NCBI GenBank assembly: GCA_001784435.1
Contig: MFQZ01000008.1
Span: 23,347-87,346, forward strand
Length of the DNA stretch: 64,000 bases
Source of the DNA: Candidatus Magasanikbacteria bacterium RIFOXYC2_FULL_42_28
Lineage (GTDB): Bacteria > Patescibacteriota > Patescibacteriia > Magasanikbacterales > GWA2-37-8
Reading direction: 5' to 3'
Positions 3,724-57,979 of the stretch are shown here, in pieces. The translations under genes and the position numbers were made by a program. Position 1 is the first letter of the stretch; the number at the start of each line of letters is the position of its first letter. Under the pieces are notes generated by a model. It ran no database searches. It was not told where the DNA came from and was given only the letters and a program-made list of their open reading frames with translations.

Positions 3724-3830
<107 letters not shown>

Positions 3831-3904
3831 AATATTGACTCTTTTTGGTTTAATTTGCGAATATTCTACGAATAAATAATTGGGTGCGGAACAATTCAAG
3901 CACA

Positions 3905-6890
<2,986 letters not shown>

Positions 6891-7140
6891 ACGAAAACAC
6901 TAAATAGTGCTTTCGCCTACAATTTAAAATTGCTTACCTACCCTATTATTTTATTCGTTGAATTTTTGAATTGTCAAAGTTCAGTCAGATCATTCGCAAG
7001 TATGTTACGAAATATTTTTCGCCTCATGCTTGCGCTTGCCTGAATTTTTTTCTTGTGGATTACACCGGCTCTGCCGGCGTTAAAAATTACCGCAAAATTT
7101 ATTTCGCCTTGGCTCGTAAATTTTGTTAATTTTTAAAAAA

Positions 7141-7165: not shown

Positions 7166-7420
7166 TATAAAATACAGAAAAAGAATTCTGCTTTTAACCG
7201 CTTGGATATTTTGAGTAAGAATTAGAGATCAGTAACATGATGGTGTTAGATTCTTTTCCCGACTTAGTCGGGACTTACCCAGAGGTCCAAGCGAACGTTA
7301 GTTCAAGTCTTGTGGACGTGGTCCCGATTTATCGGGAAGTTAACGCACAGGCGATTATACAATAAATACAAAAAGCTGTCAAGGGAGGGTTGTGGATAAC
7401 CTGTATACAAATTGTATCCA

Positions 7421-12753: not shown

Positions 12754-12859
12754 ACATGCGTATTAGTTACCGCCGGTGTCGGAGCATGTTCCTAACCGTT
12801 CGGTCCCGACTAAGTCGGGATATTTAATGGGGTTATGATAGCAGAATATTAAAAATTTG

Positions 12860-13663
12860 TCAATCTGGTTGCCAGAAACAATACGGAGAATAATATCCAC
12901 ACATATCTTGCGTATCGGCTTCGGCACAAAGATCAGTTATGGAAAACCTCGTTTGCCCACCAGGTACTCCTTGACCATTTTCCATACTGCATGCTCCATC
13001 ACACACGCCAGCCACATCCTGATCCCTTTGTAAATTACAAAACGACGTACAAAATTGATCCGGCGAAATGTCGCCACCCATACATTTCCCTGGTACTTCG
13101 TCTAATATGTCTCCCCCTCCTTCTTTCCAATCACAATATGTGGTCTCTGCCAAGCATTGCTCTTCATCTTTATCGCCACACTGGGCTTGTTGAACCGCCA
13201 ACTGCTGTTCCGCAGTCATAACATCGGTATATTTTGGTGTGCATCCGACTTCGCCATGTCCTCCACTACCCCCCCCCGCCAACTTCCCAATCACCCAATT
13301 CCCCACGCCCAAAGAGACAAAAATTATCGCCATACCAATTAACGCCGCCTGAATTATATCTTGCGCTTTGGTGATATCTTCTTGGTTGCCGCGCGCGATT
13401 AACCACCGTCCACCACCATAAAGCATTAAGCCAAACAACGCCACCCCAATCATCGCCAAAACAATACCCAAGACCTGGCCAACCAAAGACAATAAATCCG
13501 CCCACTGGCCTACGTTAGGCTCCTTAGCATCAGCAATATACCCGGCTTTTGCTCCGCTATCAGACAATCCGTAATCTGCGGTCGTGGCCTTAGTCGCAAT
13601 AACAAAAAACGAAAACACGCCCAAAGCGACAACAAATAATAAAATAATAATTTTGAATTTCAT
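12860..13663 (-). CDS. T4SS-pilin-like (TrbC/VirB2-like two-TM) surface protein with a Cys-rich C-terminal domain; distant paralog of the 31.9-37.2 kb array
   Basis: signal peptide, core LYGGGRWLIARGNQEDITKAQDIIQAALIG, and a C-terminal domain with about 14 Cys; start taken at MKFKIIILLF (alternative MLNNT at 13687). Confidence 0.55.
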   Translation of the reverse strand: MKFKIIILLFVVALGVFSFFVIATKATTADYGLSDSGAKAGYIADAKEPNVGQWADLLSLVGQVLGIVLAMIGVALFGLMLYGGGRWLIARGNQEDITKAQDIIQAALIGMAIIFVSLGVGNWVIGKLAGGGSGGHGEVGCTPKYTDVMTAEQQLAVQQAQCGDKDEEQCLAETTYCDWKEGGGDILDEVPGKCMGGDISPDQFCTSFCNLQRDQDVAGVCDGACSMENGQGVPGGQTRFSITDLCAEADTQDMCGYYSPYCFWQPD

Positions 13664-13745
13664 AAATTTTATAGTGTTATTTAGCATTGTTATTATACCA
13701 CACCTTGATTTTTTCTTCAAAATCAGGTAAAATCGCTTTAGTTAT

Positions 13746-13965: not shown

Positions 13966-13990
13966 CCCCCGACTAAGTCGGGGGCTACAC

Positions 13991-33042: not shown

Positions 33043-33540
33043 TTACTCTGGGCAACTTTCACCAGCACGCCAAACCCCATCGCCATTTGCACAATCAGCT
33101 TTGCTGATACCGCCCACAACTGTATCTATACATTCTTCCACACCATCGGCATCTGTTAACACGCACTTACCCCCCCCGCCACCCCCACCCACCAACCTAT
33201 TCGTCACAAACGCCGTAATCGCATATGCCAAAAATACAATTGTGATGCCGATTAAGGCCGCTTCCAAGGTGTCTTTGGCTTTAGTAACTTTTTCGTCATT
33301 GCCTTGAGCGGTCATCCAACGAATGCCGGCGTAAACCGTTAAGATGAAAAATACCGTGCCAATTAAAGCCAAAATCGTGTTGATTACTAAACCGGTGGTG
33401 CTTTCAAGATTAGGTGTCAAGCCGGTTTTTCCGCCGATTTGACTCAATTTTGTGCCAGCGTCATTAATTGTCAAAGCACTTACACTTAAAGGCACAAGTA
33501 AAACTGTGGCTAAAATGATAGTAAAAAAAATCTTACGCAT
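33043..33540 (-). CDS. T4SS-pilin-like protein, paralog 3, with poly-Gly linker and Cys-rich C-terminus
   Basis: core YAGIRWMTAQGNDEKVTKAKDTL. Confidence 0.6.
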   Translation of the reverse strand: MRKIFFTIILATVLLVPLSVSALTINDAGTKLSQIGGKTGLTPNLESTTGLVINTILALIGTVFFILTVYAGIRWMTAQGNDEKVTKAKDTLEAALIGITIVFLAYAITAFVTNRLVGGGGGGGKCVLTDADGVEECIDTVVGGISKADCANGDGVWRAGESCPE

Positions 33541-45244: not shown

Positions 45245-45461
45245 ACTATTTGTGGATATTTTTTTACATTGATATTATACTATAAATTATGGTAAATGTC
45301 AAAATTACAAACACAAAACCACGCGATTAAACGTGGTTTTATATTACTCTTTGACAACTAATTTAATTACCAAAGAATGATGCCACTTTTGAACGTGTGT
45401 GGCGCACGGGTGATTTTGAAAGGTTAATCACGAACCATTGAGGAAGGCGATGCTGGAACAC

Positions 45462-47569: not shown

Positions 47570-49915
47570 GTGTCTCGTCCTCGTCGCATGATCCACTACC
47601 AAAAACGCCCGGCCGCGCCGCGTTTTAATCTTAATCCCGAATTAAACAACGGCATTATTGCGGTTTTGCTTTTTATTTTGGCTGGCATTGCCACTTTGAG
47701 TTTTTTCCAAATGGCCGGCGTGCTCGGACAATTTGTGGATTCATTTTTGGCATTGCTGTTTGGCCAAGTACGCTACTGCGTCCCCTTGGTTTTAATCACC
47801 GCTTCCATCTTACTCGTCAAAGACATTGAATATAACTATCGCCACACCCACTCGGTCGGCGCGATTTTATTTTTCTTAAGTTTCAACGGCCTCGTGCATT
47901 TACAATATCCGCTTGCCGATATGGCCTCAACGGCGCAACAAGGTTACGGTGGCGGTATGATTGGCTTTGCCCTCGCCTGGGTAATGGCCTCGTATGTTGG
48001 CTATTGGGGCGGGATGTTAATTTTAATCGGACTTTTGATTGTCTCACTCATATTTTTGTTCAACACCACGCTCGCGCAAATGGTGGAAATTCACAAAAAA
48101 TTATTTTTAACTTTGGGCTGGCTCGGACGCGAGATTGTTGCGTTTTTTGGCAGTTTTAAAAACCCGTCTTCGCCTTGGGCTACGCCGGGTAAACCCGTAA
48201 AATTTGCTATCAAGGGTGATTATGAAAATCAAACTCAACCCGAAGATAATATTAACGAAACCGATGGCGAAGAAGAGCGCGTCTTTAAACAAAAATCGAT
48301 TGCTCAAACTGACGACACCGACGAAACAGAAGAAGAACCAGCCGAAGCCGAACCGGAAGAGGAAAAAGTGGTGGGCGTGCCTCAAGCCGTTATTCGCGAT
48401 TTACCAAATTTAGATTTATTATTCACCTCCAAATCCAAACCATCGGCCGGTGATATCAAAGGCAATGCCGAGACCATTAAAAGCACTTTGAAAAATTTTG
48501 GCATTGAAGTAGAAATGGGTGAGGTGCGCGTTGGTCCGACGGTAACGCAATATTCTTTCAAACCAGCGGCCGGCATTAAATTAACCCGCATCACTACTTT
48601 ATCAAATGATTTAGCGCTCGCTTTGGCCGCCCACCCAATTCGTATTGAAGCGCCAATTCCAGGCCAAAGTTTAGTCGGCGTGGAAGTTCCCAACCAAAAA
48701 GTGGCGATGGTAACACTGCGCGAATTATTAGAATCTGAAGAATTTACCAAACGCCCGCACAACATGATGATCGCGTTAGGCAAAGATGTCGCCGGTAAAG
48801 TTTGGTGGACGGACTTATTAAAAATGCCCCACCTACTCGTCGCCGGCGCCACTGGTTCAGGCAAAACCGTTTGTATCAATGCGATTATCACCAGTCTACT
48901 TTATCAAAATACCGCCGAAACTTTGCGCTTTATAATGGTAGACCCTAAACGGGTGGAGTTGACGCTCTACGACGGCATCCCCCATTTATTAACGCCGGCA
49001 ATAACCACTCCGGCCAAATGTGTGAACGCGCTAAAATGGACTATCAACGAAATGGAACGCCGTTTTGATGTTTTAGCCAAAGCCGGCAAACGCGATATTG
49101 CTTCTTTTAATAAATCCTCGTCCGAACCACTTCCATATATAGTATTTGTCATTGACGAATTAGCGGACTTAATGTCCCAAGCCAGCGCCGAAGTGGAAGC
49201 CGGAATAATTCGCATTGCCCAAATGGCGCGCGCGGTCGGTATTCATTTAATTGTCGCCACCCAACGCCCGAGTGTGGAAGTGATTACCGGTTTAATGAAA
49301 GCCAATATCCCCGGGCGCATCGCCTTTTCGGTGGCTTCAATTATTGATTCGCGCACAATTTTAGATTGCCCGGGCGCGGAAAAATTATTAGGCCGCGGCG
49401 ATATGTTGCTCCTGACCGCTGACATGTCTAAACCAAAACGCGTACAAGGCGCGTTTATTTCCGAAGAAGAAATTGATCATGTAGTGGAACATTTGAAAGG
49501 CGACGAACCACCCACTTACGACGACGCGATTGTGGCCAAAGGCGATAACAGTGGCGGCACCTTAAATATGTTTACCGGTGGCACCGATGACCAAGACGCG
49601 TTATTTGATGATGCCAAAAGATGTGTAATTGAAAGTGGCAAAGCATCCGCTTCATTATTACAACGTCGCTTAAAAGTGGGCTACGCCCGCGCCGCGAGAT
49701 TATTAGATGAATTAGAAAATGCCGGCATCGTCGGGCCCGCTGACGGCGCCAAACCGCGCGAGGTGTTTACCGAACATATTGGCAATGGACACCATATGCC
49801 CGCGCCCGAAGCCGAAATTCCGGCGGACGAGCAGACGATGGATTTGGGTGGGGTGGTGTTGGATGATAATAAACCGAAAGAATCAGAAGCCGAAGAAGAA
49901 CCACCAACACAATAA
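47570..49915 (+). CDS. ftsK: DNA translocase FtsK/SpoIIIE
   Basis: N-terminal TM segments, linker, Walker A VAGATGSGKT, Walker B, C-terminal gamma wHTH. Confidence 0.9.
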   Translation: MSRPRRMIHYQKRPAAPRFNLNPELNNGIIAVLLFILAGIATLSFFQMAGVLGQFVDSFLALLFGQVRYCVPLVLITASILLVKDIEYNYRHTHSVGAILFFLSFNGLVHLQYPLADMASTAQQGYGGGMIGFALAWVMASYVGYWGGMLILIGLLIVSLIFLFNTTLAQMVEIHKKLFLTLGWLGREIVAFFGSFKNPSSPWATPGKPVKFAIKGDYENQTQPEDNINETDGEEERVFKQKSIAQTDDTDETEEEPAEAEPEEEKVVGVPQAVIRDLPNLDLLFTSKSKPSAGDIKGNAETIKSTLKNFGIEVEMGEVRVGPTVTQYSFKPAAGIKLTRITTLSNDLALALAAHPIRIEAPIPGQSLVGVEVPNQKVAMVTLRELLESEEFTKRPHNMMIALGKDVAGKVWWTDLLKMPHLLVAGATGSGKTVCINAIITSLLYQNTAETLRFIMVDPKRVELTLYDGIPHLLTPAITTPAKCVNALKWTINEMERRFDVLAKAGKRDIASFNKSSSEPLPYIVFVIDELADLMSQASAEVEAGIIRIAQMARAVGIHLIVATQRPSVEVITGLMKANIPGRIAFSVASIIDSRTILDCPGAEKLLGRGDMLLLTADMSKPKRVQGAFISEEEIDHVVEHLKGDEPPTYDDAIVAKGDNSGGTLNMFTGGTDDQDALFDDAKRCVIESGKASASLLQRRLKVGYARAARLLDELENAGIVGPADGAKPREVFTEHIGNGHHMPAPEAEIPADEQTMDLGGVVLDDNKPKESEAEEEPPTQ

Positions 49916-50350
49916 ACTGTCTCGCTGTCTTTCCCCTCCTTTTCAAGGAGGGGACCAAGGGGCGGTTCACTCACCAACAAAAAAATATCCGCCTCACAGC
50001 GAATATTTTTATTATAGAAGCAAAACCACCCTCGCCAAAATTAAACTATTTTAATTCTAACGAGGTAGGGGTGGTCTTGCGATGTTCTGTAAGTCCGCCC
50101 ATACCTTTTCTTCGTCATTTTTTGTCCTCACCCTCTTGATCGTTGGCGCCCTCACTTCTCAACGACTCTGCGTAGTCGTTGTCGGACTGTAGCTTTTCCA
50201 ACTGTTCTTTTTCATCTTCTTCTTTTGTTTTTTTTGACTTCTTTTTGAAATCGGACGACATTCGCCCTCCTTTTGCCAGAGAGTGATTTCTCGGTCTCGG
50301 AAACTCTAACAAATAACTCTCTCTCTCTGTCAAATATCCCCCCCCCCCCA

Positions 50351-50393
50351 CGCTTAGCGTGGGTTATGGGACGCTTAGCGACAACGCTTAGCG
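50351..50393. promoter_or_regulatory. three copies of the 9-bp palindrome CGCTTAGCG (50351-50359, 50372-50380, 50385-50393), candidate operator sites, directly after a C12 tract (50338-50349)
   Basis: seen directly. Confidence 0.45.
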
Positions 50394-50398
50394 TCCCC

Positions 50399-50427
50399 TT
50401 GACAAAACCACCAAGATAGTATATAAT
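50399..50427 (+). promoter_or_regulatory. perfect consensus sigma70 promoter TTGACA-17-TATAAT, with its -10 only about 12 nt before the ATG of 50440 (near-leaderless transcript)
   Basis: TTGACA at 50399-50404 and TATAAT at 50422-50427. Confidence 0.5.
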
Positions 50428-50439
50428 ATACTATATACT

Positions 50440-51210
50440 ATGTATTCCGACACCAAACAACAAATCCTTAATATCATTAAGGAAAACAACGGCACCAGCC
50501 CCCACTCTCTTATTACCACCCTAAACAAAAACGCCTCGGGAATTTTTCGCCATCTAAAAAAATTAATTGAAACCAGCCAAATCACCAAGGTTGGCAAACC
50601 GCCAAAAGTGGTGTATTATTACTCTGCTAATAAAAATAATATGAACGAAAATCAAACTGCCGGTGACAAAATTTTAAACTGGGCGACTACCGGCAACACT
50701 ACCACAGTCCAACCGAATTGGACTTGTCAAACGCGCGATGTTTTTCAAGCCCGGCACGATCGTTTGTTAAATGAATTAAAAAAGAAATTCAGCGAAAATG
50801 TTGCTTTCACCGTTGCCGCGATTACCGGCGAAATCGGCAATAATTCCTTTGACCATAATTTGGGAAATTGGCGTGATGTAATGGGAGTAGTATTTGAAAT
50901 TAATTTGGAAAAACGTGAAATTATTTTAGCTGACCGTGGCCAAGGGATACTGGCGTCAATTAGACGTGTGCGCCCCCAAACGACCGATGACGCCGATGCG
51001 CTCCAAGTCGCGTTTACCGAAGTAATTTCCGGACGATTCCCCGAACAGCGCGGCAATGGCCTAAAATATGTCGCCAAAAATATCAAAGCCAATAATTTTT
51101 CCCTAAAATTTTATTCTGGCAATTCCAGCTGTGAAATTATCGATAATCAAATGACAATTAAAAAAACTAATCAACTAACTCCGGGAACATTGGCAATCAT
51201 TAACTTCTAA
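50440..51210 (+). CDS. wHTH plus GHKL-type ATPase (RsbW/SpoIIAB-like serine-kinase/anti-sigma-factor fold) protein
   Basis: N-terminal wHTH; N-box ITGEIGNNSFDH, G1 DRGQGI, G2 GNGLKYV. Confidence 0.5.
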   Translation: MYSDTKQQILNIIKENNGTSPHSLITTLNKNASGIFRHLKKLIETSQITKVGKPPKVVYYYSANKNNMNENQTAGDKILNWATTGNTTTVQPNWTCQTRDVFQARHDRLLNELKKKFSENVAFTVAAITGEIGNNSFDHNLGNWRDVMGVVFEINLEKREIILADRGQGILASIRRVRPQTTDDADALQVAFTEVISGRFPEQRGNGLKYVAKNIKANNFSLKFYSGNSSCEIIDNQMTIKKTNQLTPGTLAIINF

Positions 51211-51213
51211 AAT

Positions 51214-51483
51214 ATGCGTATTGAATTAAAAAAATTTGGCAACAATCTATCCTCCCGCCCAGCTGGCAAAGAGGCCTATTTGAGCGCGCGCGCCTATATC
51301 TTGCCCAAGGATAAAAACGAAAAAGTAGAAATTGATTTTACCGGCGTAGATGTTTTGACCCCATCTTGGGCCGACGAATTTTTAACACCAATTAAAAAAG
51401 AATTCGGTGATAATTTGGTTTTGTTACCATCGAATAATGTGACAATTAAATCAACTTTGGAATTTTTGGAGGAGATTAAATAA
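51214..51483 (+). CDS. small STAS-like (anti-sigma-antagonist-like, DUF4325-type) protein, probable partner of the upstream ATPase
   Basis: IDFTGVDVLTPSWADEFL resembles the STAS core; 89 aa; 3-nt intergenic gap. Confidence 0.4.
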   Translation: MRIELKKFGNNLSSRPAGKEAYLSARAYILPKDKNEKVEIDFTGVDVLTPSWADEFLTPIKKEFGDNLVLLPSNNVTIKSTLEFLEEIK

Positions 51484-54684: not shown

Positions 54685-54713
54685 AAAAAACCGTCACAAT
54701 CGTGACGGTTTTT
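54685..54713. terminator. terminator repeat copy 2 (AAAAAACCGTCACAATCGTGACGGTTTTT)
   Basis: seen directly. Confidence 0.5.
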
Positions 54714-55652: not shown

Positions 55653-55734
55653 ATATTTTTTAAATTAAAAATAAATTTTTCCCTATTAAGTATACCCCCC
55701 CCCCAACCGCTTTTGGCAAATTAGTTATCCACAG
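55653..55734 (-). promoter_or_regulatory. 82-bp repeat copy 1, read in minus orientation: DnaA box TGTGGATAA, -35 TTGCCA, G10 tract in the spacer, -10 TATACT, AT-rich leader, ATG
   Basis: near-identical to 57723-57804; C-run at 55695-55704. Confidence 0.5.
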
Positions 55735-55809
55735 ATCGCCACCCTTTGGGCTATGACCTTTTTGCAAGGCAGGGCAACCAAAGAGTGAAAAAAATATAAA
55801 AACAGCCGT

Positions 55810-57088: not shown

Positions 57089-57211
57089 ATTACAATATAT
57101 TTAATGGAAAGGTGATATTCTCACCTTTCCATTGTATATTATTTAGACAACTCTGCCAAGTGGACTGGTGGGGATAAGTTAAGTATGTTAACAATTAGTG
57201 CTAAATTAAGC

Positions 57212-57246
57212 AAAAAACCGTCACAATCGTGGCGGTTTTTAAAAAA
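57212..57246. terminator. terminator repeat copy 3
   Basis: AAAAAACCGTCACAATCGTGGCGGTTTTTAAAAAA. Confidence 0.5.
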
Positions 57247-57722: not shown

Positions 57723-57804
57723 AATATTTTTAAATTAAAAATAAATTTTTCCCTATTAAGTATACCCCCCCCCCCAGCCACTTTTGGCAAATTAGTTATC
57801 CACA
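57723..57804 (-). promoter_or_regulatory. 82-bp repeat copy 2 (G11 tract in the spacer; DnaA box TTATCCACA at 57796-57804)
   Basis: seen directly. Confidence 0.5.
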
Positions 57805-57979
57805 GGGCTACACCCCGTAAACTACAAAAGCAGTAAAATTCTGGGACAAGAAAATATTTAAAAATAGTCCCAATTTAGTCGGGACTATTTTTTTGTTTAT
57901 TTTTCTCACTATCGTTTTTTATAAATATTATGCGAGCCGGTATCAAGCAGATTCACAACATCGGGAGCGGAGAACTCAA

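What the first reader, a model, noticed from the sequence alone, without database searches (positions are those of the whole stretch)
50338..50430. Consensus sigma70 promoter with triple CGCTTAGCG palindromes and a C12 tract, giving a near-leaderless HTH-ATPase transcript
A perfect TTGACA-17-TATAAT is rare. This one lies immediately downstream of three copies of the 9-bp perfect palindrome CGCTTAGCG, spaced 21 and 13 bp apart, and a 12-C homopolymer preceded by (CT)6. Its -10 ends only about 12 nt before the ATG of a wHTH-containing protein, so the transcript is almost leaderless.

The palindromes are ideal operator sites for autorepression by the encoded wHTH. The C12 tract is long enough for slippage.
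Basis: seen in the sequence. Interest (0 to 1): 0.6.

Follow-up and report, generated by a model that had tools for sequence, protein, structure and literature searches.

The report
Autoregulated promoter beside a hairpin repeat
The described sequence is real, but the regulator's likely binding site is an AT-rich palindrome over the promoter's -10 box, whereas the three CGCTTAGCG palindromes belong to a dispersed hairpin repeat and the C12 tract is a slippage-prone run that cannot change this promoter's own spacing.

Summary

**Promoter and gene.** The perfect promoter drives a conserved two-gene module: a wHTH-GHKL ATPase plus a STAS-like DUF4325 partner. Perfect promoters are common here (4 in 64 kb), as are Shine-Dalgarno-less short leaders.

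**Likely operator.** All 16 wHTH-type orthologous promoters examined keep TTGACA-16 to 18-TATAAT-like hexamers plus TAGTDTA/TAHACTA dyad repeats running from the spacer to the ATG. In the window this is the 19-bp perfect palindrome 50416-50434. None carries CGCTTAGCG or a C tract. Relatives with a MerR-type DNA-binding domain carry TGCATAGAT repeats instead. I therefore take the AT-rich dyad as the likely autorepression operator.

**CGCTTAGCG copies.** They form a twin hairpin (7-bp stems, 21-nt spacing) with a 13-bp internal duplication. The same element, with compensatory stem changes, flanks tRNA genes on other low-GC metagenome contigs, one confirmed as Patescibacteria.

**C12 tract.** It reads C12, C13 or CAC11 in three assemblies. 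It lies upstream of everything in this promoter, so it cannot alter that promoter's internal spacing. With (CT)6 it borders a divergent minus-strand promoter candidate. Two other promoters in the window carry G10 and G11 inside their spacers.

The parts
50399..50427 (+). Perfect sigma70-type promoter: TTGACA (50399-50404), 17-nt spacer, TATAAT (50422-50427). Predicted transcription start about 50433-50436.
   Evidence: All 16 wHTH-type orthologous promoters keep a perfect TTGACA with a 16-18-nt spacer.
50416..50434 (.). 19-bp perfect palindrome ATAGTATAT-A-ATATACTAT covering the -10 box and the predicted start site. Candidate autorepression operator.
   Evidence: I11. The TAGTDTA/TAHACTA motif is in 16/16 wHTH-type promoters against 2/39 MerR-type. 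TATAGTA is in 13/16 promoters against 1.1% of background pieces.
50434..50441 (-). Third ATAGTATA half-site (TATACTAT on the + strand), overlapping the A and T of the start codon.
   Evidence: Equivalent ...ACTATG or ...ACT ATG ends occur in L005, L007, L020 and L023.
50440..51210 (+). Gene for a 256-aa protein: N-terminal winged helix-turn-helix plus C-terminal GHKL (Bergerat-fold) ATPase-like domain.
   Evidence: HTH_24 at 25.7 bits. Invariant N-box EIGNNSFDHN, G1 DRGQG and G2 GNGL. AF2 pLDDT 88. Hsp90 N-domain Foldseek hits. About 3,500 homologues.
51214..51483 (+). Gene for an 89-aa STAS-like DUF4325 partner, translationally coupled to the gene above.
   Evidence: PF14213 at 35 bits. A 70-140-aa ORF lies immediately downstream of the GHKL gene in 82/90 loci, most often overlapping by 4 nt or 1-4 nt away. 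It is called as DUF4325 in each locus with precomputed gene calls.
50347..50363 (.). Hairpin A of the twin-hairpin element: CCCACGCTTAGCGTGGG (7-bp stem, TTA loop). Contains palindrome copy 1.
   Evidence: Covariation across the family.
50368..50397 (.). Hairpin B: GGGACGCTTAGCG-ACAA-CGCTTAGCGTCCC. This is the conserved GGGACGCTWAGCGTCCC hairpin with a 13-bp internal tandem duplication. Contains palindrome copies 2 and 3.
   Evidence: (I4, D2), and the comparison with L109, L129, L156, L170 and L188.
50338..50349 (+). C12 homopolymer (G12 on the minus strand). Its last three C form the left arm of hairpin A. It ends 49 nt upstream of the + strand -35 and 4 nt upstream of the minus-strand TTGACA.
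   Evidence: It reads C12, C13 or C-A-C11 in three assemblies, and one contig ends inside it.
50317..50328 (+). (CT)6, which is (GA)6 on the minus strand, inside the 19-nt spacer of the minus-strand promoter candidate.
   Evidence: Invariant in the three assemblies.
50303..50333 (-). Candidate divergent promoter: TTGACA (50333-50328), 19-nt spacer, TGT + TAGAGT (50311-50303).
   Evidence: Read. The scan does not report it because that scan allows only 16-18-nt spacers. This is an inference.
50115..50261 (-). 48-aa highly charged ORF preceded by AGGAGG (50271-50266). Coding status unproven.
   Evidence: No Pfam or NCBIfam hit.

Best explanation
The flagged stretch contains three separate layers.

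**1. Promoter and operator.** This is a strong housekeeping-sigma promoter for an operon encoding a wHTH-GHKL ATPase and its STAS-like DUF4325 partner. The wHTH protein, probably as a dimer, most likely represses its own promoter. It would do so by binding the AT-rich dyad ATAGTATAT-A-ATATACTAT, plus a third half-site at the ATG. This dyad covers the -10 box and the transcription start. The GHKL domain and the STAS-like partner would modulate that binding, in the manner of a partner-switching pair (inferred).

**2. Twin hairpin.** The three CGCTTAGCG copies are a twin-hairpin repeat element with one 13-bp internal duplication. It belongs to a hairpin family that mostly flanks tRNA genes on other low-GC contigs, at least one of them from another Patescibacteria lineage. 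It sits just upstream of the -35 box. It is probably not this regulator's operator.

**3. Simple repeats.** C12 and (CT)6 lie outside the + strand promoter. They border or lie within a divergent minus-strand promoter candidate for a 48-aa ORF. If their length matters at all, it matters for that promoter.

**Shown:** the sequence anatomy, conservation, covariation, and the assembly differences.
**Inferred:** protein binding, repression, the transcription start sites, and any role of the repeats.
For: **Layer 1.**
- The promoter is verified.
- All 16 wHTH-type promoters (window plus 15 orthologues) have a perfect TTGACA, a 16-18-nt spacer, and 1-5 copies of TAGTNTA/TANACTA. Forward copies dominate in and just after the spacer; reverse copies cluster between the -10 and the ATG.
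- TATAGTA occurs in 13/16 promoters against 1.1% of 1,360 background pieces from the same loci.
- Relatives whose N-terminal domain is MerR-like carry TGYATAG(AT) direct repeats instead: 32/39, against 5/16 in the wHTH group. The wHTH motif occurs in only 2/39 of them.
- L007 has an almost identical recognition helix and shares ...ATAGTATATA...TATACTATATACTATG, but nothing further upstream.
- The module itself is conserved. Relatives were found in at least 565 places in species-representative genomes. An adjacent small ORF follows the gene in 82/90 loci. The GHKL motifs are invariant.

**Layer 2.**
- Twin hairpins with 20-21-nt core spacing occur in 9 of 10 external loci, and the window's first two copies are also 21 nt apart.
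- Outer stem pairs covary: 38 cells changed on both sides, against 13.9 +/- 3.1 in shuffles (0/500), and 88.9% of cells are paired against 26-46% when the partner is slid.
- 7 of 10 external loci lie beside tRNA genes.
- L170 is a Staskawiczbacteria-like Patescibacteria contig.
- No extended CGCTWAGCG hairpin occurs in 507 kb around the orthologous genes.
- The DNA fold is -22.7 kcal/mol, z = -7.9.

**Layer 3.**
- The C tract differs among assemblies.
- Four C runs of at least 9 occur on the + strand of the window, against one G/C run of that length in 507 kb of other Patescibacteria loci.
- G10 and G11 tracts sit inside the 19- and 20-nt spacers of two other promoters in the window.
Against: - No binding, transcription-start or expression data exist.
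- TATAGT-like sequence just upstream of the -10 could partly be a lineage-typical extended -10 context. The promoter at 45274-45302 has one such copy.
- Only one hairpin cluster occurs in this 64-kb window, so multi-copy behaviour within this genome is not shown.
- The 21-bp spacing equals two helical turns, so it also fits binding of a dimeric protein to duplex DNA.
- Inter-assembly differences at a 12-13-nt homopolymer may be sequencing or assembly error. The G10 and G11 tracts do not vary among three assemblies.
- The minus-strand -10 (TAGAGT) is weak and the 48-aa ORF has no homologue evidence.
Confidence: 0.62

Rival explanations
1. One reading: the three CGCTTAGCG palindromes are operators through which the encoded wHTH protein represses its own promoter.
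For: The three exact copies are clustered and far beyond chance. They end 5 nt upstream of the -35 box. wHTH dimers typically bind palindromes.
Against: The palindromes are absent from the 15 orthologous wHTH-type promoters, including L007, which has an almost identical recognition helix. The same hairpins occur beside tRNA genes and inside an ORF in loci that do not encode this regulator. The outer stems covary rather than being sequence-conserved. A different motif tracks the type of DNA-binding domain.
Confidence: 0.07
2. The CGCTWAGCG twin palindromes are duplex-DNA binding sites for a different, conserved dimeric or tetrameric protein. That protein would act on the two divergent promoters here and on tRNA or other promoters elsewhere. 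The C12 tract would set the phasing between those sites and the minus-strand promoter, as in the Bordetella fim promoters.
For: The core ACGCTWAGCGT is invariant. The 21-bp spacing equals two helical turns. The sites lie between two -35 boxes. G12 sits between the sites and the minus-strand TTGACA.
Against: Compensatory variation in the outer stems points to selection for self-complementarity rather than for a fixed protein-contact sequence. Many copies lie 3' of tRNA genes or overlap the tRNA 3' end, and one pair is in-frame within a coding region. No candidate binding protein has been identified.
Confidence: 0.15
3. The hairpins act as RNA: a processing, stability or termination signal, as suggested by related C-UAA-G-apex hairpins in tRNA and rRNA leaders. 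Here they would belong to a long leader or a read-through transcript.
For: Related CCCGACTAAGTCGGG hairpins lie in the transcribed 23S leader and 7 nt upstream of tRNA-His, with UAA in the sense orientation. The tRNA-adjacent CGCUAAGCG hairpins mostly read UAA on the tRNA sense strand, though both orientations occur next to the tRNAs of L129.
Against: In the window they lie upstream of both predicted -35 boxes, and no promoter that would transcribe them was found. Loops of both orientations (TTA and TAA) occur within single clusters. There is no T-run after the hairpins.
Confidence: 0.12
4. The C12 and (CT)6 repeats have no regulatory role. The apparent length variation of C12 is an Illumina or assembly artefact at a homopolymer.
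For: The variants are C12, C13 and an odd C-A-C11, and one contig breaks inside the tract. This is typical of homopolymer error. (CT)6 and the G10 and G11 tracts are identical across assemblies.
Against: Long C runs are strongly enriched in this genome relative to other Patescibacteria loci, and they are repeatedly placed in promoter regions.
Confidence: 0.45

Closest known systems
Autoregulated MarR/ArsR-type winged-helix repressors (for example MarR at marO). Comparison from general knowledge.
   Same: An N-terminal wHTH domain (HTH_24, MarR and HTH_5 hits). A palindromic site of about 19 bp overlapping the core promoter of its own operon.
   Different: The wHTH is fused to a GHKL ATPase-like domain and paired with a STAS-like protein. 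There is no MarR dimerisation scaffold. Binding is untested.
SpoIIAB-SpoIIAA and RsbW-RsbV partner-switching modules (GHKL anti-sigma kinase plus STAS antagonist). Comparison from general knowledge.
   Same: A small GHKL domain with N, G1 and G2 boxes, with weak HATPase_c_2 hits in 3/30 members. An adjacent, translationally coupled STAS-like gene with a conserved Ser/Thr-containing motif, TPSWADEF.
   Different: No sigma factor target is evident. The GHKL domain is instead fused directly to a DNA-binding domain (wHTH, MerR-type or none). DUF4325 is only STAS-like. Phosphotransfer is untested.
Repetitive extragenic palindromes (REP/BIME) and Rickettsia palindromic elements. Comparison from general knowledge.
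   Same: Short GC-rich hairpins with a conserved core, clustered in pairs, found in intergenic regions, at tRNA flanks and once in-frame within a gene.
   Different: Only one cluster in this 64-kb window. No associated RAYT-type transposase was seen. The same core is shared across distinct low-GC contigs, whereas REPs are usually species-specific.
Slipped-strand phase-variable promoters: the Bordetella fim C-tract, Neisseria porA and opc, Haemophilus hif. Comparison from general knowledge.
   Same: A homopolymer of at least 10 nt and a dinucleotide repeat within a promoter region. Assembly-level length differences. Two other promoters in the window with G10 and G11 inside the spacer.
   Different: At the flagged locus the C12 lies outside both hexamer spacers. 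Only (GA)6 lies within a spacer, and that is the spacer of the weak divergent promoter candidate. No read-level or expression evidence is available.
Z-alpha (Z-DNA/Z-RNA binding) winged-helix domains of PKZ and ADAR1.
   Same: These are the best solved-structure sequence hits of the family profile (E = 1e-5), sharing ...RHL... in the recognition helix and PP in the wing. 8/30 members give weak Pfam z-alpha hits.
   Different: The Z-DNA-contacting Asn and Tyr (identified from general knowledge) align with Phe36 and Lys40 here. The wing Trp has no counterpart; by manual alignment it falls at Val57. MarR and HTH_24 hits are broader.

Membership tests
sigma70 (housekeeping) promoter | -35 TTGACA and -10 TATAAT hexamers separated by 17 +/- 1 nt | tested here: met
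   A 12/12 match with a 17-nt spacer at 50399-50427. Conserved in the orthologues.
sigma70 (housekeeping) promoter | Transcription starts about 7 nt downstream of the -10 box | not testable with these tools
   Needs 5'-RACE, dRNA-seq or Cappable-seq.
Leaderless mRNA | The 5' end lies at, or within about 0-5 nt of, the start codon | tested here: inconclusive
   The geometry predicts a leader of about 5-7 nt (-10 ends at 50427, ATG at 50440). Orthologues have -10-to-ATG gaps of 12-35 nt. No start-site data are available.
Autoregulated wHTH repressor | Winged-helix DNA-binding domain | tested here: met
   HTH_24 at 25.7 bits, above the 21.9 cut-off. 27/30 family members hit HTH_24. The AF2 model shows H-H-H-E-E topology in residues 5-61.
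Autoregulated wHTH repressor | A repeated or palindromic site overlapping its own core promoter, conserved with the protein | tested here: met
   The 19-bp palindrome at 50416-50434. The motif is in 16/16 wHTH-type promoters and is replaced by another motif where the DNA-binding domain is MerR-type.
Autoregulated wHTH repressor | Specific binding and repression | not testable with these tools
   Needs EMSA or footprinting and a reporter assay.
GHKL (Bergerat-fold) ATPase | N-box (ExxxN), G1 (DxGxG) and G2 (GxGL) motifs and the Bergerat fold | tested here: met
   Invariant E131/N134-N135, D165-R-G-Q-G169 and G205-N-G-L208. Foldseek hits to the Hsp90 and TRAP1 N-domains with probability up to 0.99 but weak E-values of about 6e-4. 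There is no Pfam HATPase hit for the window protein, and only 3/30 relatives give weak hits.
Partner-switching module (SpoIIAB/SpoIIAA type) | Adjacent STAS-fold antagonist with a phosphorylatable Ser/Thr | tested here: inconclusive
   A DUF4325 STAS-like gene is adjacent, and an adjacent small ORF occurs in 82/90 loci. A conserved TPSW motif is present. Its equivalence to the SpoIIAA phospho-Ser is not established.
Partner-switching module (SpoIIAB/SpoIIAA type) | A sigma factor as the sequestered target | tested here: not met
   No sigma factor gene was seen in the module or among the neighbouring genes scanned or called. A DNA-binding domain is fused to the GHKL domain instead.
REP/BIME-like palindromic repeat | Hairpin-forming unit with a conserved core and compensatory stem variation | tested here: met
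   26 distinct hairpins, 88.9% of cells paired, covariation score 0.472 against 0.123 in shuffles (0/500).
REP/BIME-like palindromic repeat | Many dispersed copies within one genome | tested here: not met
   Only this one CGCTWAGCG cluster occurs in the 64-kb window. A related CGACTWAGTCG hairpin has 3 copies. The rest of the genome was not available.
Phase-variable (slipped-strand) promoter | A simple-sequence repeat located where its length changes promoter spacing | tested here: not met
   For the + strand promoter, C12 and (CT)6 are both upstream of the -35 box and of the palindromes. For the minus-strand candidate, (GA)6 is in the 19-nt spacer and G12 is 4 nt upstream of the -35; this part is inconclusive.
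Phase-variable (slipped-strand) promoter | Length polymorphism within the population | tested here: inconclusive
   C12, C13 and C-A-C11 in three assemblies, and one contig ends inside the tract. This cannot be separated from sequencing error without the reads.
Z-alpha domain | Conserved Asn and Tyr in the recognition helix and Trp in the wing, which contact Z-form nucleic acid | tested here: not met
   Asn and Tyr align with Phe36 (invariant) and Lys40. The HMMER alignment stops before the Trp; by manual alignment it corresponds to Val57.

The most novel reading that the evidence does not exclude
Two readings remain open.

(a) The CGC-TWA-GCG twin hairpin, together with the sister CGAC-TWA-GTCG hairpin found in rRNA and tRNA leaders here, may be an undescribed structured-element family in Patescibacteria. 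It would be tied to stable-RNA genes and able to spread into promoters and coding regions.

(b) This Magasanikbacteria genome may use homopolymer and dinucleotide slippage in promoters as contingency switches. The candidates are G10 and G11 in -35/-10 spacers, and G12 plus (GA)6 at the divergent promoter next to the flagged site. To my knowledge this has not been described for CPR bacteria.

In addition, the DBD-GHKL plus DUF4325 pair would be a CPR-wide partner-switching regulator that acts directly on DNA rather than through a sigma factor.
Probability: 0.25. Interest if true: 0.65.

Novelty: new variant of a known kind. Interest (0 to 1): 0.42.

Why it matters
CPR/Patescibacteria are largely uncultivated and, to my knowledge, little is known experimentally about their gene regulation.

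- **A testable regulator-operator pair.** This locus links a widespread, uncharacterised regulator family to predicted operators. The family is a DNA-binding domain fused to a GHKL ATPase, paired with a STAS-like protein, and was found in at least 565 places in species-representative genomes. The predicted operator is TAGTDTA dyads for wHTH forms and TGCATAGAT repeats for MerR-type forms.
- **A caution for sequence reading.** An eye-catching GC-rich palindrome cluster next to a promoter need not be the operator. Here it is a dispersed hairpin repeat.
- **Cheap follow-up.** The repeated placement of long G/C tracts in promoters of one CPR genome hints at phase variation in these episymbionts. 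This could be checked directly in existing read data.

Tried and rejected
- **Metagenome scan for CGCTTAGCG-N(1-30)-CGCTTAGCG.** Most of the 120 returned loci are chance matches or unrelated repeats. About 45 of them come from one metagenome, Ga0315911. Only about 10 low-GC loci carry the true twin hairpin.
- **Viral-contig scan for GGGACGCTWAGCGTCCC.** It gave 5 isolated hairpins, no more than my rough chance estimate. Uninformative.
- **Rfam.** Nothing credible in 49850-50500.
- **Small ORF as a remnant of a larger gene.** The 185-aa gene next to the module in L005 has no match in the window.
- **L003.** This 1.65-kb scaffold is identical from window position 50414 onward but unrelated upstream: a PilB/GspE-like C-terminus and a 25-bp-stem hairpin. 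I could not decide between a chimeric assembly and a real second context. It keeps the AT-rich dyad but lacks a good -35.
- **Defence-system membership.** PADLOC gave only weak wHTH (CasR) and DrmA hits. Rejected.
- **Z-alpha identity of the wHTH.** Rejected on the contact residues.
- **C12 inside a promoter spacer.** I found no fitting hexamers on either strand.
- **A minus-strand promoter upstream of the hairpins, which would make them part of an RNA leader.** None found.
- **Literature.** No paper characterises the DUF4325/GHKL module; the three that mention DUF4325 do so once each, in passing. The searches run found no paper describing these hairpins.
Full report
**1. Observation**

Reading the sequence confirms each element.
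- (CT)6 is at 50317-50328.
- C12 is at 50338-50349.
- CGCTTAGCG is at 50351-50359, 50372-50380 and 50385-50393.
- TTGACA is at 50399-50404, then a 17-nt spacer, then TATAAT at 50422-50427.
- ATG is at 50440.

The three 9-mers are the only exact copies in the window (0.27 expected; 0 of 100 shuffles reach 3). One-mismatch variants are at chance level (16 against 10.7).

The perfect promoter is real but not rare here. Four perfect TTGACA-17-TATAAT sites occur in 64 kb against 0.01 expected. One of them probably drives the 23S rRNA.

The window is a bacterial chromosome with 23S and 5S rRNA genes but no adjacent 16S. The focal protein is identical to one from Candidatus Magasanikbacteria RIFOXYC2_FULL_42.

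**2. Gene context**

The order on the + strand is as follows.
- FtsK, 47570-49915.
- A 48-aa charged ORF on the minus strand, 50261-50115, preceded by AGGAGG.
- A 256-aa wHTH protein, 50440-51210.
- An 89-aa DUF4325 STAS-like protein, 51214-51483.
- A RodZ-like protein, then RecA, then Fic on the minus strand.

The C-terminal two thirds of the 256-aa protein carry invariant GHKL motifs: EIGNNSFDHN, DRGQG and GNGL. The AF2 model has pLDDT 88. It resembles Hsp90 and TRAP1 N-domains, though with weak E-values. 'HTH-ATPase' is therefore a fair label.

The family has about 3,500 homologues.

A small ORF follows the GHKL gene in 82/90 loci, usually overlapping by 4 nt or 1-4 nt away. It is DUF4325 wherever gene calls were available.

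The pair moves between contexts. It lies after trigger factor in L005 and L007, convergent with RecA in L008, and between FtsK and the RodZ-like gene here.

The N-terminal DNA-binding domain is swapped between lineages. It is wHTH in Magasanikbacteria, MerR-like in many Microgenomates and Parcubacteria, and absent in 191-aa forms.

**3. What is conserved upstream**

I compared 16 wHTH-type promoters: the window plus 15 orthologues. L008 and L059 were left out. In L008 the promoter-like site lies about 150-200 nt upstream of the start.
- Every one of the 16 has a perfect TTGACA, a 16-18-nt spacer and a TATAAT-like -10.
- Every one has 1-5 copies of TAGTNTA/TANACTA. Forward copies dominate in and just after the spacer. 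Reverse copies cluster between the -10 and the ATG.
- None has a Shine-Dalgarno sequence.

In the window this array is the 19-bp perfect palindrome ATAGTATAT-A-ATATACTAT (50416-50434). A third half-site at 50434-50441 overlaps the ATG.

TATAGTA is present in 13/16 promoters against 1.1% of 1,360 background pieces from the same loci. It is therefore not a general promoter feature.

In the 39 MerR-type relatives the own-promoter repeats are TGCATAGAT(T) instead. The TGYATAG motif occurs in 32/39 of them against 5/16 in the wHTH group. The wHTH motif occurs in only 2/39.

A repeated motif that sits on the core promoter and changes when the DNA-binding domain changes is strong comparative evidence for autoregulation.

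None of these promoters contains CGCTWAGCG or a C tract. In 507 kb of such loci the 9-mer occurs 4 times, never with an extended stem.

L007 is the sharpest control. Its recognition helix (ASGIFRHLKK) is almost identical. It shares the dyad up to the ATG but nothing further upstream.

**4. Leader**

The -10 ends 12 nt before the ATG, so the predicted leader is about 5-7 nt. Among orthologues the gap is 12-35 nt, and the window and L007 are the shortest.

The genome is generally poor in Shine-Dalgarno sequences and has short AT-rich leaders. Another perfect promoter lies 29 nt from its ATG. The near-leaderless geometry is thus the short end of a normal range for this organism.

**5. The CGCTTAGCG palindromes**

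Folded as single-stranded DNA, 50330-50400 forms two hairpins (-22.7 kcal/mol, z = -7.9).
- Hairpin A is CCCACGCTTAGCGTGGG.
- Hairpin B is GGGACGCTTAGCG-ACAA-CGCTTAGCGTCCC.

Copies 2 and 3 are a 13-bp tandem duplication (ACGCTTAGCGACA / ACGCTTAGCGTCC) inside one hairpin. This explains the odd 13-nt spacing.

A metagenome scan for paired 9-mers returned mostly noise. About ten low-GC loci, however, carry the same composite: a 17-nt hairpin with a variable outer stem, a roughly 4-nt linker (often GATT or AATT), then GGGACGCTWAGCGTCCC.
- Core-to-core spacing is 20-21 nt in 9 of the 10 external loci. The window's first pair is also 21 nt apart.
- On 26 distinct hairpins the four outer stem pairs, which were not constrained by the search, covary. 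There are 38 cells changed on both sides, against 13.9 +/- 3.1 in shuffles (0/500). Pairing is 88.9%, against 26-46% when the partner is slid.
- Seven of the ten loci place the hairpins directly beside tRNA genes. In four of them (L109, L132, L186, L188) the tRNA's 3' end, including CCA, forms one arm.
- In L188 one pair lies in-frame inside a MiaB-like ORF.
- L170 is from a Staskawiczbacteria-like Patescibacteria genome.

The window also has a sister hairpin, CCCGACTWAGTCGGG, in 3 copies against 0 expected. One is in the 23S leader and one is 7 nt upstream of tRNA-His.

I conclude that the 'triple palindrome' is a member of a dispersed hairpin-repeat family and not this regulator's operator. 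Its own function is unknown; a REP-like selfish repeat, an RNA signal and a protein site all remain possible. In the window it lies upstream of both predicted -35 boxes, so it is probably not transcribed.

**6. C12 and (CT)6**

Independent assemblies of the same locus read C12 (window), C13 (Logan SRR2090171) and C-A-C11 (ERZ27254852). A fourth contig ends inside the tract. This may be real heterogeneity or homopolymer error.

The tract is 49 nt upstream of the + strand -35 and upstream of the hairpins. Its length therefore cannot alter any spacing within that promoter.

On the minus strand the layout is G12, then ATAT, then a perfect TTGACA (50333-50328). A 19-nt spacer containing (GA)6 follows, then TGT-TAGAGT (50311-50303), then AGGAGG and the ATG of the 48-aa ORF. 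Losing one GA unit would give a 17-nt spacer. This is an inference with no supporting data.

The wider genome gives some support for a role.
- Four C runs of at least 9 occur on the + strand in 64 kb. Only one G/C run of that length occurs in 507 kb of other Patescibacteria loci.
- Two of the runs (G10 and G11 on the coding strand) lie inside the spacers (19 and 20 nt) of a duplicated promoter cassette, TTGCCA-N9-Gn-TATACT. The cassette lies upstream of two unrelated small genes in a Fic/AbiEii island.
- Those two tracts do not vary among three assemblies.

**7. Mechanism proposed**

The wHTH-GHKL protein binds the AT-rich dyad over the -10 box and start site. It thereby represses a promoter that is otherwise maximal. 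ATP binding or hydrolysis, and binding or phosphorylation of the DUF4325 partner, would tune DNA binding. This would be a partner-switching logic in which a fused DNA-binding domain replaces the sigma factor.

The anatomy and conservation are shown. Binding, repression and partner control are inferred.

**8. Other checks**

The family profile's best solved-structure hits are Z-alpha domains (E = 1e-5). The Z-DNA-contacting Asn and Tyr align with Phe36 and Lys40 here, and the wing Trp has no counterpart. It is therefore not a Z-alpha domain.

PADLOC gave no credible defence assignment. Rfam gave nothing credible for the region. Literature searches found no characterisation of the DUF4325/GHKL module and no paper describing these hairpins.

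**9. Verdict**

The promoter and autoregulation idea holds, but the operator assignment is wrong and the C-tract link to this promoter does not fit the geometry.

The locus is a new variant of known kinds: an autoregulated wHTH promoter, a partner-switching-like module, a palindromic repeat, and simple repeats near a promoter. Its value is moderate and lies mainly in giving testable regulator-operator predictions for an uncharacterised CPR-wide module.

Noticed in passing
window 55695-55704 and 57765-57775 (minus-strand promoters, about 55690-55740 and 57760-57810): A duplicated promoter cassette of about 110 nt: TGTGGATAA, then TTGCCA, N9, G10 or G11, then TATACT. The poly-G tract lies inside the -35/-10 spacer (19 and 20 nt). 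The cassette is upstream of two unrelated small genes (188 aa and 150 aa) in a Fic/AbiEii island. This is the classic layout of a phase-variable promoter. Tract lengths are identical in three assemblies.
   Followed up: partly
window 7257-7273, 12804-12820, 13966-13984: A second hairpin family, (C)CCCGACTWAGTCGGG(G), with 3 copies against 0 expected. One lies in the 23S rRNA leader, one about 40 nt downstream of the stop codon of a minus-strand gene, and one 7 nt upstream of tRNA-His. It has the same C-TWA-G apex as the CGCTTAGCG hairpins.
   Followed up: partly
window 49974-50083; L005 4607-4713: A 110-nt intergenic element, 88% identical between two Magasanikbacteria genomes whose proteins are only about 64% identical. 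It forms a long hairpin (ACCACCCTCG...CGAGGTAGGGGTGGT) and sits 3' of minus-strand genes in both. It could be a small RNA or a bidirectional terminator. There is no Rfam match above threshold.
   Followed up: partly
L003 1-782 against window 50414: A 1.65-kb scaffold carries the identical gene and AT-rich dyad, but its sequence upstream of window position 50414 is unrelated: a PilB/GspE-like C-terminus and a perfect 25-bp-stem hairpin. It is either a chimeric assembly or a second genomic context whose breakpoint lies inside the promoter spacer.
   Followed up: partly
window 1552, 7391, 55725, 57796; also L020, L022 and L023 just upstream of the -35: Perfect DnaA-box-like 9-mers, TGTGGATAA (reverse complement TTATCCACA). 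There are 4 against 0.67 expected. In the window, two lie 5 nt upstream of the -35 of the duplicated G-tract cassette and one lies next to the 23S promoter. In L020, L022 and L023 the motif lies a few nt upstream of the wHTH-GHKL promoter.
   Followed up: no
L188 1143-1178: Two CGCTAAGCG hairpins lie in-frame inside a MiaB-like radical-SAM ORF, encoding ...NAKRSGKDAKRP... between domains. This resembles the in-frame insertions of Rickettsia palindromic elements.
   Followed up: no
window 13269-13277 and 33170-33177: C9 and C8 runs (G runs on the coding minus strand) lie in coding sequence as glycine runs. The C9 run is within a Cys-rich membrane or secreted protein (12860-13687). They are possible frameshift-prone tracts.
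   Followed up: no
window 3725-6891: The 23S and 5S rRNA genes have their own perfect promoter (7354-7382, minus strand) and no adjacent 16S gene, so the rRNA operon appears unlinked.
   Followed up: no
window 54686-54713 and 57211-57240: A repeated 28-30-bp terminator-like hairpin, AAAAACCGTCACAATCGTGACGGTTTTT, in the Fic/AbiEii island.
   Followed up: no
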